DNA of 12,099 nucleotides from Candidatus Latescibacterota bacterium. Its GTDB lineage: Bacteria; Latescibacterota; UBA2968; GCA-2709665. The notes beneath the pieces were generated by a model that did no database searches, had not been told where the DNA came from, and saw nothing but the letters and a program-made list of their open reading frames with translations. The position numbers and the translations under genes are program-made. Position 1 is the first letter of the stretch. Each line of letters starts with the position of its first letter. Shown one piece after another: positions 3 to 12,099 of this stretch. Where the stretch lies: the NCBI GenBank assembly GCA_963662665.2, contig CAXXJS010000002.1:1-12099 (forward strand), written 5' to 3'.

Positions 3-812
3 GCCTTCAAGCGGATCTTCGAAGAACAGGCGAAAGACCTCGTACTCCTGATGCTATGGAACCAGGGCGAACCCTTCATCAACAAGCGGCTGACCGACAT
101 GGTCCGTCTGGCCAGGGCACACAACGTCCCCACAATCACCAGCACCAACGTCCACTACATACGAAGCCGAAGCGATGCCGAAGATATCGTCACCTCCGGT
201 CTGGACGAAATCGTGGTCTCCCTGGACGGGGTAACCCCGGAATCCTACGTCAAGTACCGCGTTGGCGGCAACTTCGACCGGGTGCTGGACGGAATCCGTC
301 TTCTCAGCACGGCAAAGAAGACGCTGAATGCGGACCATCCCGTCATCCACCTGCAATTCATCATTTTCAAACACAACGAGACCGAAATTGACGCCGCCCG
401 GAACCTGGCGAGGGATCTCGGCGTCGACCGCCTTTCGCTGAAAACGGCTCAGGTCTATTCCGATACGGAAGCGCAACAGTACCTGCCTGAAAACGAGTCT
501 TTCAGCCGCTATCGTTACGATGCGGAACAACTCACAATGAACGGCAGGATCACCAATTCCTGCAGGCACCTCTGGTACAGTACAGTCGTCAACTGGGACG
601 GGGCCGTGTCACCGTGCTGTTTCGACAAAGACGTCCATTACGGCCTGGGAAACACGCTGGAAGAGCCGGACTTCGACAACATCTGGTCCGGTGCGGCCTA
701 TACCGACTTCAGAAACGCCATCCTCAAGGACCGGTCTTCGGTACCCATTTGCAATAACTGCTCCGAAGGCATCAAAGGCATGTTCTACGATATCGAAGAG
801 GTGAAACATTAG
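3..812 (+). CDS. Radical SAM protein with C-terminal SPASM/twitch domain (5'-partial)
   Basis: Frame is open from base 3 (AFKRIFEEQAKDLVLLM...), so the start and the CxxxCxxC motif lie outside the window. Contains NQGEPF (GGEP-like), STN, VSLDG and YRVGGNF motifs of the rSAM barrel, and C-terminal CRHLW...NWDGAVSPCCFD...IW...PICNNC typical of SPASM/twitch Fe-S domains. Confidence 0.88.
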   Translation, partial: AFKRIFEEQAKDLVLLMLWNQGEPFINKRLTDMVRLARAHNVPTITSTNVHYIRSRSDAEDIVTSGLDEIVVSLDGVTPESYVKYRVGGNFDRVLDGIRLLSTAKKTLNADHPVIHLQFIIFKHNETEIDAARNLARDLGVDRLSLKTAQVYSDTEAQQYLPENESFSRYRYDAEQLTMNGRITNSCRHLWYSTVVNWDGAVSPCCFDKDVHYGLGNTLEEPDFDNIWSGAAYTDFRNAILKDRSSVPICNNCSEGIKGMFYDIEEVKH

Positions 813-993
813 CGACGGCACCCCGCGGCTGCAATGCGCGCGCAAGGGTACGACTCGTATCCGGACCCCGGGCCTCCGCATGGCTGCCTTACAACCGCTG
901 CGGTTGCACTGACCCGGGATCGCCTACCGCCACCGACCGGTTTTCGTTGTTTCGCATCGCTCATTTTCCAGTCGCCCCCGACCCCGGATTTCC

Positions 994-2172
994 GTGTCGA
1001 CCTCCCTGATCAATTCGTTACTGCTGGCTTCAACGGCAATCTACCTCGGCGCCGCCGTGGCATTTCTGATTGGCCTGCGGCGAAAGAACCGGCCCGCTCG
1101 CAGCCGCTCGCGGCCGTTTGTGTCCGTTGTGATCGCGGCGAGAAACGAAGCGGACTACATCGCCGATTGCCTCGCGGGGCTGGTTAACCAGACGTATCCC
1201 GCCGACCGATACGAAGTCCTGGTCGTGGACGACGGTTCAACCGACCCCACGCCGCTCATTTCAGCCGGGTATTCCGCACGGCATTCCCGGGTTCGAAACA
1301 TTGAAGTCACGGACGCCTTTCAACATATGGCCGCGAAGAAACGGCCGCTGTCCGAGGGCATAAGGGCCGCGCGAGGCAGTATCATCTTAACGACAGACGC
1401 GGATTGCGCCGTGCCGAACACGTGGGTCGCCGGCATGGTCTCGCAGCTCGAGGCCGGCGCGGAGGTCGTCATCGGCTTTTCGCAGGTCAAGACCGGACAG
1501 GACAGGTTGATGCCCGCCGAACGGTTGCAGGCATTCGACTTTCTCGCCCTCATGTCCGCTTCGGCCGGTGCCGCAAACCTGGGGATGCCGCTGGCCGCGA
1601 CCGGCCAGAACCTGGGCTACCGGAAGGCGCTCTTCGAACGCGTTGACGGCTTCGAGAAAATCGCCCATTGCCCGTCCGGTGACGACGTACTCCTGCTCCA
1701 GCTGTTCCGGCGGGCAGGCGCGACGGTCGTATTTGCAGACCACCCGGACACATTTGTCAACACCCGGCGCGCGGAATCCATGGCCGGTTTCTGGGCCCAG
1801 CGGCGCCGATGGGCGTCGAACGCCCGACACGTCTTGACGCTCCATCCCCTGTTTTTCGTCTATCTCGCGAATGTCTTTCTGCTCAACCTTTTGATACCTG
1901 CAGCCGCGGTCCTGGGTGTGGGCGGGAAAGCCTACGGCCTCGCGCCGGCCTGTTTCGCGGTCAAAATCCTGGCGGACCTTTGCGTGGTATGGAAGGGCGC
2001 CCGCCGGTTCGGCCGGACCGACCTCCTGCCTGTGCTGCCGGTATGGGAAATCGTGCAGATTCCTTACACGGTTCTGGTGGGGTTGTTCGGATCGTTCGGC
2101 AGTTTCGTCTGGAAGGGAAGGGTCCACAACCCGCGTGAGACGGGGAAATCGCGTGTTCTGGCTCTAAAATAG
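994..2172 (+). CDS. Membrane-bound glycosyltransferase family 2
   Basis: N-terminal TM segment, VSVVIAARNE, VVDDGSTD, TDAD (DxD), SGDD and QRRRW (QxxRW) motifs, C-terminal hydrophobic helices. GTG start with no obvious SD, so the start is less certain. Confidence 0.92.
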   Translation: MSTSLINSLLLASTAIYLGAAVAFLIGLRRKNRPARSRSRPFVSVVIAARNEADYIADCLAGLVNQTYPADRYEVLVVDDGSTDPTPLISAGYSARHSRVRNIEVTDAFQHMAAKKRPLSEGIRAARGSIILTTDADCAVPNTWVAGMVSQLEAGAEVVIGFSQVKTGQDRLMPAERLQAFDFLALMSASAGAANLGMPLAATGQNLGYRKALFERVDGFEKIAHCPSGDDVLLLQLFRRAGATVVFADHPDTFVNTRRAESMAGFWAQRRRWASNARHVLTLHPLFFVYLANVFLLNLLIPAAAVLGVGGKAYGLAPACFAVKILADLCVVWKGARRFGRTDLLPVLPVWEIVQIPYTVLVGLFGSFGSFVWKGRVHNPRETGKSRVLALK

Positions 2173-7081: not shown

Positions 7082-7923
7082 GTCAGAACTCCGCGCGTCC
7101 ATTCCACGGATTCGATCAATCGTCTCACCTTCTCCGCCCCGATCCGGGCGACCTCTCGAGCGTCCTGTCGCCACAGGTCTTCATTGAACAATTCGAGAGA
7201 GACAGGACCGGAGAACCCCTGGGATGCCAGTAACACGAGCATGTTTTCCAGGTTCAGAATCCCGTCGCCGGGATACACCCGGTCTCCGTCCGTAAGGGTC
7301 TCCCTTTGGCGGCCGGTTTGCGGCGCATCGTCAATGTGGAAAATGGACACCTGCGCTCCGGGGACCTTCAGGATATCCTTGTCCCGTCCGCCGCCTCGAT
7401 AGATGTGAAACGCATCCATTACAACGGTGGTCTCGCTGTGGTCCGCAAGGTTGACGATCTCCATCAACGTATTCACGTTATTCACGTGGTCTACAAAACC
7501 GAGAAACTCCAGGGTGGGCAGACATCCGATCTCCTGCCCGAGTTCCATCAGCCTGACGAAGCGGTCCGCCGCCCGATTCAGGTCGACCTGCCCGTGAGCG
7601 GGCCCGGCGATGATCCGCGGCGCCCCGACGGCCATGCCCTGCTCCATCAGCCGCCGGGCTTCTGTGAGAAGGTCTGTTTCGAATAGCGAATCGGTGGCGT
7701 CCATCCACCCGGAAAAGTGAACCAGGTCGGGCACCGTGAGATTGTGGTCGTCGAGCATCCGCCTGACGTCGGATAAACTCCCGCCGCCCCGTTCCCATTG
7801 GGTCAGGTCTTCGTTCCAGAGTTCAATCGCCTCGTATCCCGCGTCGCCTGCCGCCCGAATCTTCTCGTCCAGGGACGCGGGCTTGATCGTACTGGTATTG
7901 AAACACAGCTTAAACCTGGCCAT
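7075..7923 (-). CDS. Sugar phosphate isomerase/epimerase (xylose-isomerase-like TIM barrel, IolI-like)
   Basis: AGYEAIELW, metal-binding LEFLG, DAFH, HIDD, DRVYPGDG, SLELFN. GGAGG SD before ATG. Confidence 0.88.
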   Translation of the reverse strand: MARFKLCFNTSTIKPASLDEKIRAAGDAGYEAIELWNEDLTQWERGGGSLSDVRRMLDDHNLTVPDLVHFSGWMDATDSLFETDLLTEARRLMEQGMAVGAPRIIAGPAHGQVDLNRAADRFVRLMELGQEIGCLPTLEFLGFVDHVNNVNTLMEIVNLADHSETTVVMDAFHIYRGGGRDKDILKVPGAQVSIFHIDDAPQTGRQRETLTDGDRVYPGDGILNLENMLVLLASQGFSGPVSLELFNEDLWRQDAREVARIGAEKVRRLIESVEWTRGVLTW

Positions 7924-8584
7924 CCCGTCCTCCAGTTTCGCAAATCGCGTTCAGCGCGCACTGATCGCATATGGGTTTTGGCAGGCAGACGCGCTTGCCG
8001 AGGGCCACGATCAGGGCATGAAACTCGTTGTAGACACGCGTGTCCGCCGGTAACGCGGCTTCGAACCGGCGCTGTACCTCCTGGTAAACGAGCGCCCTGT
8101 CGATCATTCCCAGCCGCCCGAACACACGCCGCGTATATGCATCAATAACAAAACTCGGCTTATCGAGCGCATAGAGAAGAATGCAGTCCGCGGTTTCAGG
8201 CCCGATTCCGTGTACCTCCACCAGTTCCTCGCGCAGCCGCCCCGTGGGCGCAGCCTTCATCCGGGCAACGTCCGCGCCGTAACATCCTACGAAGAATGCC
8301 AGGAACGCCTTGAGCCGCCTGGTTTTTACGCGGAAGGTCCCGGCGGAGCGGATGAGTGTTTCCATTTCGCCGTCGGGCATGTGCAGCATGGTCCGGGCAT
8401 CGAGCAACCCGGCCGCCTTTAGCCCGCCCAACACCCGCTCCACGTTCGCCCAGGCCGTATTCTGGGTGAGTATAGCCCCGACCATCGTTTCGAACGGGGT
8501 TTCCGCGGGCCACCAGCCCTGTGGTCCGAACGCATCCAGCAACCGGCTGAAGACCGCACTAATCCTGTTCTGTCCGGAGGGCAT
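7910..8584 (-). CDS. Endonuclease III-related HhH-GPD DNA glycosylase with C-terminal 4Fe-4S motif
   Basis: WWPAETPFETMVGAILTQNTAWANV, HhH VHGIGPETADCILLYA, FVIDAYTRR, CLPKPICDQCALNAIC. Start placed at ATG 8584 because the TTG at 8623 coincides with a candidate -35 box. Confidence 0.9.
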   Translation of the reverse strand: MPSGQNRISAVFSRLLDAFGPQGWWPAETPFETMVGAILTQNTAWANVERVLGGLKAAGLLDARTMLHMPDGEMETLIRSAGTFRVKTRRLKAFLAFFVGCYGADVARMKAAPTGRLREELVEVHGIGPETADCILLYALDKPSFVIDAYTRRVFGRLGMIDRALVYQEVQRRFEAALPADTRVYNEFHALIVALGKRVCLPKPICDQCALNAICETGGRDGQV

Positions 8585-8594
8585 AACGGGCCGA

Positions 8595-8623
8595 AATCTA
8601 ACGAATCGACGGGTGATGAGCAA
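8595..8623 (-). promoter_or_regulatory. Candidate sigma70-type promoter of the glycosylase-isomerase-dusB-larB operon
   Basis: TTGCTC (8623-8618), 17 bp, TAGATT (8600-8595), 10 nt before ATG 8584. Confidence 0.45.
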
Positions 8624-8695
8624 CCCTATTCATTTCCCGGGGACGTATTTGCGTTGGGATTCAGTGGGTTCCGAAGCCCGCCCGCCAGGGCTGTA

Positions 8696-8737
8696 AAACA
8701 ACAGAAAAGCGCCCGGACCGTGGTCGTCCGGGCGCTT
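8696..8737 (-). terminator. Rho-independent terminator downstream of the small ORF
   Basis: Perfect 12-bp inverted repeat AAGCGCCCGGAC (8707-8718) / GTCCGGGCGCTT (8726-8737), running into a U-rich TTTTCTGTTGTTTT on the minus strand. Confidence 0.8.
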
Positions 8738-8740
8738 ATT

Positions 8741-8768
8741 CAGTAGACAGTTCGCAGTGGTCAGTTCG
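8741..8768 (+). repeat. Tandem heptamer array CAGTnnn x4
   Basis: CAGTAGA CAGTTCG CAGTGGT CAGTTCG. Confidence 0.55.
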
Positions 8769-8889
8769 GGTGGGTGTAGAGTTTCTTCCAAAGCTGAATG
8801 ACCCTCAACTGGTGCCGAACCCAGCAGTAACGTTTCAGGATTTCGATGATCTTCAGACGTAAGGCAAATTCACGCAGATCCGCGGACAT
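8761..8889 (-). CDS. Small basic protein of unknown function, 42 aa (MSADLREFALRLKIIEILKRYCWVRHQLRVIQLWKKLYTHPN)
   Basis: Strong SD AAGGAAGGAGG a few nt before ATG 8889, upstream TTGACA-17bp-TATATA, terminator 23 nt after the stop. No family recognised. Confidence 0.65.
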   Translation of the reverse strand: MSADLREFALRLKIIEILKRYCWVRHQLRVIQLWKKLYTHPN

Positions 8890-8924
8890 GCCGCCCTCCT
8901 TCCTTTTGCAGGTCTCATGCTTCA

Positions 8925-8953
8925 TATATACGGATGCGGCGTTCAAATGTCAA
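8925..8953 (-). promoter_or_regulatory. Candidate sigma70 promoter for the small ORF
   Basis: Perfect TTGACA (8953-8948), 17-bp spacer, TATATA (8930-8925; lacks the -7 T). Confidence 0.6.
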
Positions 8954-8978
8954 GCGGTCCGGCACCGGGGCTTTCCGC

Positions 8979-9007
8979 TTTACACGGTTTCCGTGACGGC
9001 CTATATT
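8979..9007 (+). promoter_or_regulatory. Candidate sigma70 promoter for the aldolase gene
   Basis: TTTACA (8979-8984), 17-bp spacer, TATATT (9002-9007). Confidence 0.6.
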
Positions 9008-9055
9008 GAACGAATCAGCCGTTCTATTGATCCGACCCCTGTCGCGGAGATGTCC

Positions 9056-9817
9056 ATGTCTGAAATCAGCCTGAAAGCCAAACTGCAAGCCGGCGAGGTT
9101 GTCCTGGGTCCCTTTGTCAACCTCGCTTCCGGCGCACTCATCGAAATCGCCGCGTACGCCGGATTCGACTTCGTCATTCTGGATACCGAACACGGTCCGC
9201 TGGACATCGAAACCACCGAGAACCTCTGCCGCGTGGCGAAAGGCGCGGGTATTTCCCCCATCGTGCGCGTCCGGGACAACGACCCGCCCCAGGTGCTCAG
9301 AGCGCTGGACATAGGCCCGGAGGGCGTCCAGGTACCCCAGATACGCACCCGATCAGACGCCGAGTCCCTCGTCCAGGCGGCAAAGTACGCCCCAATCGGG
9401 ATGCGGGGCGTCTCTCCCTACACCCGCGCGGCCAGGTACTTTTCGGAAGGCGGCCAGATCTTCGAGCGCCTGAACAGGGAATCCATGGTTCTCATTCACG
9501 TGGAGGGCGTAGATGGTCTCGAGAATCTCGATGCCATCATCGCTGTGCCCGGCCTGGACGTCGTTTTCCTCGGTCCGTACGACCTCTCACAGTCGCTGGG
9601 CATCCCGGGCCAGGTGCACGATCCCAGGGTGGTGGACCGGATGCGGGAGGCCACCGTTGAGATCAACAATGCCGGCCTCACCGTGGGCACCTTTGCGGAC
9701 AGCCCCGACGCCGCGAAACGCTGGATCGACGCCGGCGTACGTTACATCGCACTGTCGGTGGACACGGGCATCTACCTTCACGGCTGCCGCGATATGGTCA
9801 AAGCCATGAGGGGGTGA
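9056..9817 (+). CDS. HpcH/HpaI-family class II aldolase
   Basis: GFDFVILDTEHG, IVRV, LDIGPEGVQVP, YAPIGMRG, HVE (QIE position), FLGPYDLSQSLG. GGAG SD 6 nt before ATG 9056 (ATG 9050 is an alternative). Confidence 0.92.
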   Translation: MSEISLKAKLQAGEVVLGPFVNLASGALIEIAAYAGFDFVILDTEHGPLDIETTENLCRVAKGAGISPIVRVRDNDPPQVLRALDIGPEGVQVPQIRTRSDAESLVQAAKYAPIGMRGVSPYTRAARYFSEGGQIFERLNRESMVLIHVEGVDGLENLDAIIAVPGLDVVFLGPYDLSQSLGIPGQVHDPRVVDRMREATVEINNAGLTVGTFADSPDAAKRWIDAGVRYIALSVDTGIYLHGCRDMVKAMRG

Positions 9818-10115: not shown

Positions 10116-10373
10116 TCAAGCCACGTCGTGCCGTTTGATCCAGTCGCGCAGGGCGTTGTCGATCCGTGTCTGCCAGCCGCGCCCTCCGGCGCGAAAATGA
10201 TCGACGACCTCCTGGGACAACCGGATGGTGGTCGATACTTTTGGTCGCGCCTTAGGGGGACGGCCCCGACGTACGGGCGCCCTGGCGAATTTCTCCGGCC
10301 AGCCGTCCTTCGAGAGATCGGGTGCGGTGTCGGGGTCAAAACCTCGGGCCGTAGAGCCGTCGTTCTCGTTCAT
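10116..10373 (-). CDS. brnA: BrnA antitoxin family protein
   Basis: DTAPDL...RGRPPKARPKVSTTIRLSQEVVDHFRAGGRGWQTRIDNALR is the typical BrnA C-terminal RHH signature. GAGGAGG SD inside brnT; 38-bp overlap. Confidence 0.92.
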   Translation of the reverse strand: MNENDGSTARGFDPDTAPDLSKDGWPEKFARAPVRRGRPPKARPKVSTTIRLSQEVVDHFRAGGRGWQTRIDNALRDWIKRHDVA

Positions 10374-10605
10374 TTGCCCTCCTCATGCTAATGATCCTGT
10401 GGGCGTCGCCGCGACACGTCCAGACGAGCACCACCATCGCATCATTCAGAAAACCGATGGTGATGTGGCGAACCTCACCGTAGTCCTGCCGATCATCCTC
10501 GACGGTCAGCGTCGTGCTGGCGAATACGTCCGCCGCCCGGGCCATGTCCAGCCCTCGGACCTGGATCGTCTCCGCGCGCTTCGCCTCGTCGAACTCGATC
10601 CGCAT
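10336..10605 (-). CDS. brnT: BrnT family ribonuclease toxin
   Basis: MRIEFDEAK...RGLD...DDRQDYGEVRHITIGFL...VLVWT.RG...RIISMRRANERE. Confidence 0.93.
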   Translation of the reverse strand: MRIEFDEAKRAETIQVRGLDMARAADVFASTTLTVEDDRQDYGEVRHITIGFLNDAMVVLVWTCRGDAHRIISMRRANERERRLYGPRF

Positions 10606-11367: not shown

Positions 11368-12099
11368 TCAGGAAATTCCGTCCAGCCTAAACAGCAGTTC
11401 TGGTGCGTTCTTTAACACGAACTTCGCAACATCATCGGCAGCCAGTAAATCTATTGGTCGATCTATGGCCTCGGATGTTTCACGAATCTTGTTTTCCAAT
11501 TTTTCGGTCTTCTGCGCTGTTGTTATAATCATTCCGGCAGTACCATTGAATTTCTCAATTCCCGCTTTTACCTGATCAACAGCGCCGACGTCGTTGTGGC
11601 TGCCCGAGAAGGACTTGATCTGAACGATGATCTTGTTTTCAATCTCCAAGTGTCCCAAGGGCGAGCGCATTGTAACAATAAGGTCGGCACCATGATCGCT
11701 TCTCCAACCAGAACCGTTTTCGTCGACATTTACCACGCCAGGTATTTTTCGGAAGACCCTTGCAAGAAATGGTTCAAGTCGCTTTCCTTTGTGGTTTTCG
11801 TGGATTAGTCTTGCAATCTCAGAAAGATATGGGTTCGTCCCAATCTTCAGGTGGTTTTCTTCCCAGCTTTCTCCAGGTTTGAGGTTGATCACGTTTTGTT
11901 TCAAATTATCAATTGACTTTAAAAAGTCCTCAGATTTGTAGACTCTTTGATACCTATATCTGGGATTTAAATTGACTGTTGGTAGAACATTTGGATCCCC
12001 CCGGTCAAATTCAACGATCGTTTCAACGTCGATTTCGAAACAATGTCTAAAGTCCTTCCCCCATGGGACATCCAACCCTTCGTCGAAACCGTAATCCGA
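11368..12099 (-). CDS. Mrr-like (PD-(D/E)xK) restriction endonuclease domain protein (5'-partial)
   Basis: Frame is open to the window end (SDYGFDEGLDVPW...). C-terminal LE..LA.VF, DHGADL...IIVQIKS, AVDQV, GMIITT match the Mrr_cat D-(Q)xK pattern. AT-rich. Confidence 0.8.
   Translation of the reverse strand, partial: SDYGFDEGLDVPWGKDFRHCFEIDVETIVEFDRGDPNVLPTVNLNPRYRYQRVYKSEDFLKSIDNLKQNVINLKPGESWEENHLKIGTNPYLSEIARLIHENHKGKRLEPFLARVFRKIPGVVNVDENGSGWRSDHGADLIVTMRSPLGHLEIENKIIVQIKSFSGSHNDVGAVDQVKAGIEKFNGTAGMIITTAQKTEKLENKIRETSEAIDRPIDLLAADDVAKFVLKNAPELLFRLDGIS

What the first reader, a model, noticed from the sequence alone, without database searches (positions are those of the whole stretch)
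8696..8953. Self-contained transcription unit for an unrecognised 42-aa cationic small protein
Seen: TTGACA-17-TATATA, a ~30-nt leader with AAGGAAGGAGG, ORF MSADLREFALRLKIIEILKRYCWVRHQLRVIQLWKKLYTHPN, then a 12-bp stem with a U tract. These are among the strongest expression signals in the window. The peptide has 9 K/R versus 3 D/E, two Trp, two Tyr, one Cys and no TM-length hydrophobic run. Inference: a highly expressed small protein that gene callers would probably miss; could bind nucleic acid or the ribosome, or be a membrane-active leaderless peptide. I recognise no family.
Basis: partly seen in the sequence, partly recalled or inferred. Interest (0 to 1): 0.7.

Follow-up and report, generated by a model that had tools for sequence, protein, structure and literature searches.

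The report
Class-wide 42-residue protein of Latescibacterota
This is a conserved gene for a basic 42-amino-acid protein that occurs once in nearly every genome of one class of uncultured Latescibacterota bacteria and matches no catalogued family; the protein is predicted to be a single helix that likely docks onto a housekeeping machine, with the ribosome as the best guess.

Summary
The promoter-like sequence, ribosome-binding site, 42-codon ORF (8889-8761, minus strand) and terminator hairpin are all present. The ORF is a real protein gene: dN/dS is 0.06 over 15 congeneric genomes. One copy is found in 128 of 132 genomes of this Latescibacterota class, the same count as ribosomal bS21, and none credibly in 36 genomes of other classes. 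Length (mostly 39-43 aa), the motif DLxKLALRLKVIExL and a tail W-x(3-4)-L/W-I-x-P-N-stop are kept; 114 of 114 database homologues checked end in Asn. The promoter is kept in 35 of 35 stand-alone loci. No significant Pfam, NCBIfam, PHROG, PDB or viral match. AlphaFold gives one helix; there is no transmembrane segment. It is not an sRNA, and a leader peptide, mobile toxin or microcin-C precursor is unlikely. Function is not shown. Best guess (about 30%): a lineage-specific ribosome or translation accessory protein. Rivals are a protein regulator acting through its Asn tail, or a membrane-surface helix. It has decayed or is missing in three genomes, so it is probably dispensable. Transcription is untested. 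The scan's earlier notes held nothing on this sequence.

The parts
8948..8953 (-). -35 hexamer TTGACA of a sigma-70-type promoter (inferred)
   Evidence: Sequence; TTGAC(A/T) with a 17-nt spacer in 35 of 35 loci of f1, f2 outside g6, and f3; background 0.49%
8925..8930 (-). -10 hexamer TATATA (non-canonical last base); predicted start of transcription near 8918
   Evidence: TATATA in 15 of 15 genus genomes, TAnnnT at the same register in the other 20 loci. Start site inferred from usual spacing
8895..8905 (-). Shine-Dalgarno AAGGAAGGAGG, 5 nt before the ATG
   Evidence: SD-like word in 21 of 22 f1, 10 of 10 f2 (outside g6), 3 of 3 f3 loci
8761..8889 (-). CDS of the 42-aa basic small protein, predicted single helix (residues 2-39)
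   Evidence: dN/dS 0.06; pLDDT 89.9; 128 of 132 class genomes
8836..8880 (-). Codons 4-18: most conserved motif D-L-R/H-K-L/F-A-L-R-L-K-V/I-I/V-E-M/I-L, hydrophobic on two opposite helix faces
   Evidence: Column profile of 190 sequences; hydrophobic moment 0.12-0.17
8764..8790 (-). Codons 34-42: tail motif W-x(3-4)-L/W-I-x-P-N with Asn as last residue
   Evidence: W34 and N42 invariant in alignments A2, A3, A5; 114 of 114 end in N, 91 of 114 in PN
8695..8737 (-). Intrinsic-terminator-like hairpin (12 bp, 7-nt loop) with interrupted U tract
   Evidence: 98.8% of cells paired over 16 f1/f2 sequences, 3 pairs with two-sided changes
8979..9007 (+). Divergent promoter-like site (TTTACA-17-TATATT) for the HpcH/HpaI aldolase gene at about 9050-9817; context, not part of the unit
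7910..8623 (-). Downstream HhH-GPD (endonuclease III-like) gene, followed by a TIM-barrel gene, a Dus gene and an AIRC-family gene; context, possibly reached by read-through

Best explanation
The unit encodes a conserved 42-residue basic protein that is predicted to fold as one long helix and likely works in trans in the cytoplasm by docking onto a housekeeping machine, most likely the ribosome or its assembly line. Shown: real coding gene under purifying selection, one copy per genome, class-wide and vertically inherited, near-fixed length, invariant terminal Asn, no transmembrane segment. Predicted: single helix. Inferred: the N-terminal motif, conserved on all faces, is buried against a partner; the Arg/Lys-rich middle contacts RNA; the W...IxPN tail inserts its free carboxylate end into a pocket. 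The ribosome as partner is a guess from profile and context. That it is a real trans-acting protein gene I put at about 0.95; the confidence below is for the ribosome reading.
For: Retention 128 of 132 class genomes (129 with G119, cut by a contig end), equal to bS21 at 128 of 132. One strong match per genome; no paralogue in G000. Net charge +3 to +11 in 168 sequences, pI 10.3. Promoter - small basic gene - terminator - housekeeping genes is the layout of rpsU-type loci (recalled). The gene stands directly before obgE in 3 of 3 f3 genomes and 3 of 28 metagenome loci, and before dusB, directly or within the same-strand run, in many f1/f2 loci. Class-restricted small ribosomal proteins exist: bL38, 5.6 kDa, ubiquitous in Bacteroidia (PMC11851116, passages). 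Between this genome and f4 it is 34-41% identical, near bS21's 40-47%.
Against: No direct binding evidence. Not in a ribosomal-protein operon in any locus mapped. Less basic and more hydrophobic than bS21 (K/R 21% vs 33%; hydrophobic 52% vs 34%) and faster within f1-f3 (52-55% vs 75-91% identity). Not found in G023 (98% complete, 2 contigs) or G032 and degenerate in G106, all of which keep bS21. It does not replace bS21, bL34, uL29, uL30 or RNA polymerase omega, which are present. In f4 its neighbours are envelope genes, not translation genes.
Confidence: 0.3

Rival explanations
1. A regulator of a protein machine that acts through its C-terminal tail, as LarA activates Lon protease through its last five residues, or a small inhibitor of ATP synthase or another enzyme.
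For: Helix followed by a short unstructured tail with an invariant last residue resembles the LarA anatomy described in PMC10665427 (passages). Lon and F-type ATP synthase gamma are in G000. The ESM Atlas gave a weak feature likeness to clusters where 24% of members carry the ATP-synthase gamma family (score 0.94, 153 of 256 features).
Against: LarA's degron ends in His, not Asn; passages of PMC11986505 gave no Asn rule. C-terminal Asn is not enriched in G000 (ratio 1.01, 121 of 3925 putative ORFs). No protease or atp gene is a recurring neighbour. The Atlas hit lies under the tool's 170-feature guide and within its chance range.
Confidence: 0.25
2. A peripheral membrane protein: the amphipathic C-terminal half lies on the inner face of the membrane and the N-terminal motif recruits an envelope-related partner.
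For: C-half hydrophobic moment 0.38-0.48 with charge +3 to +4 and an invariant Trp. In f4 it follows a 1160-aa PD40/peptidase-MA protein with an aromatic outer-membrane-type C-terminus and precedes putative lipoprotein and TPR genes.
Against: In G000 the orthologue of that large gene lies on another contig with no copy behind it; f1-f3 place the gene elsewhere. Mean hydrophobicity of the C-half is negative. A membrane-surface role does not explain an invariant terminal Asn.
Confidence: 0.15
3. A small basic oligomeric DNA-binding (nucleoid or transcription) protein.
For: Basic long helix with heptad-like hydrophobic spacing; a DksA/TraR gene lies within 1.7 kb upstream in many f1/f2 loci.
Against: No helix-turn-helix, zipper or ribbon family match; 18 of 85 f4-type sequences have a Pro inside the helix.
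Confidence: 0.1
4. A RiPP precursor of the microcin C type (C-terminal Asn adenylated by MccB), or a leaderless antimicrobial peptide.
For: A C-terminal Asn is the only strict feature of McC precursors and a 42-aa precursor is known from Yersinia (PMC8323819, passages). Cationic and amphipathic.
Against: The minimal cluster is mccABC; no ThiF or exporter gene among the recurring neighbours. Of two ThiF hits over cut-off in G000, both on other contigs, the one inspected sits in an unrelated cluster. Class-wide single-copy vertical inheritance; no viral copies.
Confidence: 0.04
5. A cis-acting leader or ribosome-arrest peptide controlling the genes behind it.
For: Trp plus Pro next to the stop codon, and a terminator 24 nt downstream, recall TnaC-type leaders (recalled); a coding gene follows on the same strand in f1-f3.
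Against: Downstream genes differ by lineage and are convergent in most of g6; f4 mostly lacks the terminator (5 of 36); all three stop codons are used; the N-terminal half is the most conserved part.
Confidence: 0.04
6. A non-coding RNA or a chance ORF.
For: Short unit between promoter and terminator.
Against: dN/dS 0.06-0.28 in four lineages; variable columns 15/7/29 by codon position; RNA fold z = -0.5; no Rfam match at this place.
Confidence: 0.01

Closest known systems
Lineage-restricted small ribosomal proteins (bL38 of Bacteroidia; bS22, bL37, bTHX)
   Same: About 5 kDa, basic, near-universal in one class and absent outside it (bL38 facts from PMC11851116 passages; bS22 from a search listing; bL37 and bTHX named in the same passages)
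   Different: No sequence match; bL38 is a beta hairpin plus helix encoded in the rpmB-rpmG operon, whereas this is one predicted helix outside ribosomal operons; ribosome binding untested
LarA (Caulobacter Lon activator) and HspQ
   Same: Small protein whose C-terminal helix and short conserved tail carry the function (PMC10665427 passages)
   Different: LarA is 89 aa and ends in His; no homology; no link to lon in gene order
MccA precursors of microcin C
   Same: Invariant C-terminal Asn; a 42-aa example exists (PMC8323819 passages)
   Different: No adjacent mccB/mccC; core single-copy gene with its strongest conservation in the N-terminal half
Ribosomal protein bS21
   Same: Small, basic, helical; identical retention count in the class (128 of 132)
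   Different: No Pfam match; a true bS21 is present separately

Membership tests
Any catalogued protein family (Pfam, NCBIfam, PHROGs, PDB) | Profile match at or near the curated cut-off | tested here: not met
   Pfam: 0 for the query, best stray E 0.048 in 1 of 42 members; NCBIfam 0 of 42; PHROGs best E 0.016, unnamed family, 8 of 62 members; PDB sequences best E 0.28 and 1.7
Lineage-specific ribosomal protein | Near-universal single-copy retention in its clade | tested here: met
   128 of 132 class genomes, as bS21
Lineage-specific ribosomal protein | Basic composition | tested here: met
   pI 10.3, net +3 to +11; K/R share lower than bS21
Lineage-specific ribosomal protein | Encoded with ribosomal-protein genes | tested here: not met
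   No ribosomal-protein gene among recurring neighbours within 3-4 kb; obgE or dusB follow in f1-f3
Lineage-specific ribosomal protein | Stoichiometric binding to a ribosomal subunit | not testable with these tools
   Needs gradients, mass spectrometry or cryo-EM
Microcin C precursor (MccA) | C-terminal Asn | tested here: met
   114 of 114
Microcin C precursor (MccA) | Clustered mccB (ThiF) and mccC exporter | tested here: not met
   None among recurring neighbours; G000 ThiF hits lie on other contigs
Microcin C precursor (MccA) | An MccB-type enzyme elsewhere in the genome | tested here: inconclusive
   PF21475 found nothing but rang in no control; only one of two ThiF hits over cut-off was inspected
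Type I toxin or membrane small protein | Transmembrane helix | tested here: not met
   Best 19-residue KD mean 0.47 here, at most 1.11 in 117 homologues
Leader or arrest peptide | Constant co-oriented downstream target | tested here: not met
   Targets differ; convergent gene in most of g6
Lon regulator (LarA/HspQ type) | Tail-dependent binding to Lon | not tested
Known fold | Specific structural match | tested here: inconclusive
   Foldseek 0 matches; VIA-align best Z 5.5, tied among unrelated long helices

The most novel reading that the evidence does not exclude
An undescribed class-specific subunit or regulator of a core machine (ribosome, or an AAA+ protease or ATP synthase) in Latescibacterota that is recognised through a new C-terminal signal, W-x(3-4)-L-I-x-P-N-COOH, whose free Asn is read or chemically used (for example cyclised or modified) by the partner.
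Probability: 0.25. Interest if true: 0.7.

Novelty: new member of a known kind. Interest (0 to 1): 0.42.

Why it matters
It adds an unnamed core gene family to an uncultured bacterial class: kept as often as a ribosomal protein, yet matched by no family library searched. It is usable now as a class marker and for correcting gene calls. If it proves to be a ribosome subunit it would join the few lineage-specific bacterial ribosomal proteins; if the terminal Asn is a recognition signal it would be a new C-terminal motif. At 42 residues it can be synthesised and tested directly. Interest is limited by the lack of any functional evidence and of a cultured host; conserved small proteins of unknown function are a known and large category.

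Tried and rejected
Expression: no RNA holder listed among 5 runs, which is no evidence either way; two runs laid as contigs cover the stretch with no differences but may be this DNA's source. Complex prediction (homodimer) was not available, so oligomer state and partners are untested. Fold searches uninformative. ESM Atlas did not hold the window protein; two homologues gave unnamed clusters (0.95-0.96), a weak ATP-synthase gamma lead, and no usable named hit once that family was skipped. Replacement of bS21, bL34, uL29, uL30 or omega: rejected, all present (omega first looked absent but is only divergent). Fusion to long proteins: long open frames in G159, G164, G166 are only stop-free upstream sequence in another frame than the neighbour gene; 7 longer database hits end with the same domain and look like over-extended starts. 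The 54-aa and 61-aa in-frame extensions start inside the promoter and are rejected. Four hits outside the class (E 0.005-0.04) are partial and lack start, length or terminal Asn; P0026 is a repeat protein. Viral contigs: 0 of 50 pattern matches confirmed. Obligate partnership with the second small ORF of f4: rejected, 23 of 76 f4 genomes and none credible in f1-f3. Genome-wide Asn C-degron: no enrichment. Conserved Cys or Trp23: not conserved. Literature searches listed no paper on this family; earlier scan notes held nothing on it.

Full report
Observation. All listed elements are in the sequence on the minus strand: TTGACA 8953-8948, 17 nt, TATATA 8930-8925, AAGGAAGGAGG 8905-8895, a 42-codon ORF 8889-8761 and a 12-bp hairpin 8737-8707, the longest terminator-like stem of 9 found in the window. 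The promoter scan did not list this promoter because TATATA lacks the last T. The neighbours are a divergent HpcH/HpaI aldolase gene and, downstream, HhH-GPD, TIM-barrel, Dus and AIRC-family genes. Record titles of close relatives name Candidatus Latescibacterota (some Gemmatimonadota).

It is a real protein gene. The DNA is found in 14 of 14 congeneric genomes. Over these and G000 the frame is intact, variable columns fall 15/7/29 on codon positions 1/2/3, and dN/dS is 0.059. It is 0.17 in genus g6 (19 sequences), 0.28 in g31 (6) and 0.21 in g25 (6). Codon usage is gene-like (0 of 1000 shuffles as high; GC3 0.69 vs 0.70). The transcript has no excess structure (z -0.5) and no Rfam match at this place.

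Distribution. With a 62-sequence profile, 128 of 132 genomes of the class have one strong match (f1 22 of 22 with G000, f2 29 of 31, f3 3 of 3, f4 74 of 76); 4 of 36 genomes outside the class gave partial hits at E 0.005-0.04, which on inspection lack the start, length or terminal Asn. bS21 is found in 128 of the same 132. Of the four misses, G119 has the gene cut by a contig end and G106 has a degenerate remnant at the syntenic site; in G023 (98% complete) and G032 (91%) neither gene nor its junction was found. So it is probably dispensable. The search of 1.84 billion representatives, run with the narrower order-level profile, gave 23 hits, 22 of this family and one repeat protein; the word-indexed search gave 138, of which 120 were listed, every named one 'hypothetical protein'. 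All 28 metagenome loci show one of the neighbourhoods known from the class; no viral copy was confirmed. A tree of 71 sequences (a subset, 42 columns, many forks unresolved) needs 4 label changes for 5 lineage groups, the minimum; f4 (97/99) and g6 (100/93) are supported, f1 is unresolved. This fits vertical inheritance. No paralogue in G000.

Anatomy. Lengths are 39-42 in the 47 distinct proteins and 40-43 in 39 f3/f4 loci (four g25 loci lack a start at the usual place and two of them have one seven codons upstream). L10, W34 and N42 are invariant in 117 aligned sequences. All 114 newly listed homologues end in Asn, 91 in Pro-Asn; exceptions seen elsewhere are P0017 and P0018, which run on past the motif, and the G106 remnant. 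The profile includes this Asn, so some selection is possible. AlphaFold2 gives one helix, residues 2-39, pLDDT 89.9, pTM 0.51; Foldseek found nothing and VIA-align only generic helices at Z 5.5. Residues 4-21 are conserved on all faces with hydrophobic residues on two opposite sides (moment 0.12-0.17), the middle is variable and Arg-rich, and the C-terminal half is amphipathic (0.38-0.48); there is no transmembrane stretch. Cys is present in only 22 of 117.

Expression signals and context. TTGAC-N-17-TA stands upstream in 22 of 22 f1, 10 of 10 f2 (outside g6) and 3 of 3 f3 loci, against 0.49% of random windows, and in 0 of 19 g6 and 0 of 36 f4 loci; a crude hairpin-plus-U test passed in 18 of 22, 9 of 10, 3 of 3, 9 of 19 and 5 of 36. 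The terminator stem is 98.8% paired over 16 sequences with 3 two-sided pairs (related sequences inflate this). Contexts: f1/f2 between divergent hpcH (dksA beyond) and nth-like/dusB/larB-like genes; g6 behind a sulfatase with mostly convergent genes after it; f3 directly before obgE; f4 directly behind a 1160-aa PD40/peptidase-MA protein, before putative lipoprotein and TPR genes. In G000 that large gene lies elsewhere with no copy behind it. The gene thus moves between loci while its sequence stays, which points to a product acting in trans. The gene names dusB, larB, nth, obgE and dksA are my labels for the Pfam families found.

Mechanism. Not shown. A helix conserved all round, of near-fixed length and with an invariant last residue is best read as a docking peptide (inference). 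I favour the ribosome (0.3) because of bS21-like retention, basicity, the promoter-gene-terminator layout and obgE/dusB neighbours, with bL38 as precedent for a class-restricted 5.6-kDa ribosomal protein (PMC11851116, passages). Against: lower K/R share and faster change than bS21, loss in three genomes, no ribosomal operon, envelope neighbours in f4. It replaces none of bS21, bL34, uL29, uL30 or omega. A tail-dependent regulator like LarA (PMC10665427, passages) is close behind (0.25), though no Asn rule was found in PMC11986505 (3 passages) and terminal Asn is not enriched in G000. A membrane-surface helix (0.15) and a DNA-binding oligomer (0.1) remain. The microcin C precursor likeness (terminal Asn; 42-aa example; PMC8323819, passages) fails on gene context.

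Known or new. No significant match in Pfam, NCBIfam, PHROGs or PDB sequences. Five literature searches (listings and abstract starts only) showed no description; the library lacks most subscription journals, and small-protein catalogues in supplements were not searched, so the family may be listed there unnamed. The scan's own notes held nothing on this sequence; one search returned only RNA genes of the phylum, which I did not use.

Verdict. Observation confirmed; interpretation partly supported. An unnamed, class-wide core family of 42-aa basic helical proteins with an invariant C-terminal Asn; new family, known kind; function open. Interest 0.42.

Noticed in passing
L111:2981-3172 (-), L113:463-648 (+) and other f4 loci; not in the window: A second unannotated 51-71-aa ORF (MLKL..P.G.NRNR...LFRRFW) starts within about 15 nt of this gene's stop; found in 23 of 76 f4 genomes at the same place, no credible copy in f1-f3, no significant Pfam match, not homologous to the 42-aa protein.
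   Followed up: partly
L219 (G106) and L156 (G107): In genus g23 the 42-aa gene is diverged (G107) or degenerate without terminal Asn (G106) at the syntenic site: a natural loss usable for co-loss analysis.
   Followed up: partly
G000:C10:466142-466420 (-): RNA polymerase omega is very divergent in this phylum: only 18 of 168 genomes pass the Pfam cut-off; the G000 candidate (E 0.045) lies between guanylate-kinase-like and CoaBC-like genes.
   Followed up: partly
window 10116-10605 (-) and 11368-12099 (-): BrnT/BrnA toxin-antitoxin pair and an Mrr-type endonuclease gene in lower-GC DNA, where relatives often carry dksA beyond hpcH; no dksA match in G000 by tblastn.
   Followed up: partly
window 8846-9817 (+): The hpcH frame is open 200 nt upstream of its likely start (9050/9056) and overlaps the small gene antisense, which could make gene callers drop or mis-start it.
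   Followed up: no
L175, L176, L183 (f4 genomes): bS21 of family f4 is divergent and some copies have long Gly/Arg-rich C-terminal tails.
   Followed up: no
L163:964-2606 (G000 C31): A 410-aa protein with a C-terminal ThiF domain followed by a 137-aa Cys/His-rich ORF, resembling ubiquitin-like E1/E2 defence loci (likeness recalled).
   Followed up: no
window 3-2172 (+): Radical SAM/SPASM gene (cut by the contig start) followed by a family 2 glycosyltransferase; 8 kb from the small gene, no link examined.
   Followed up: no
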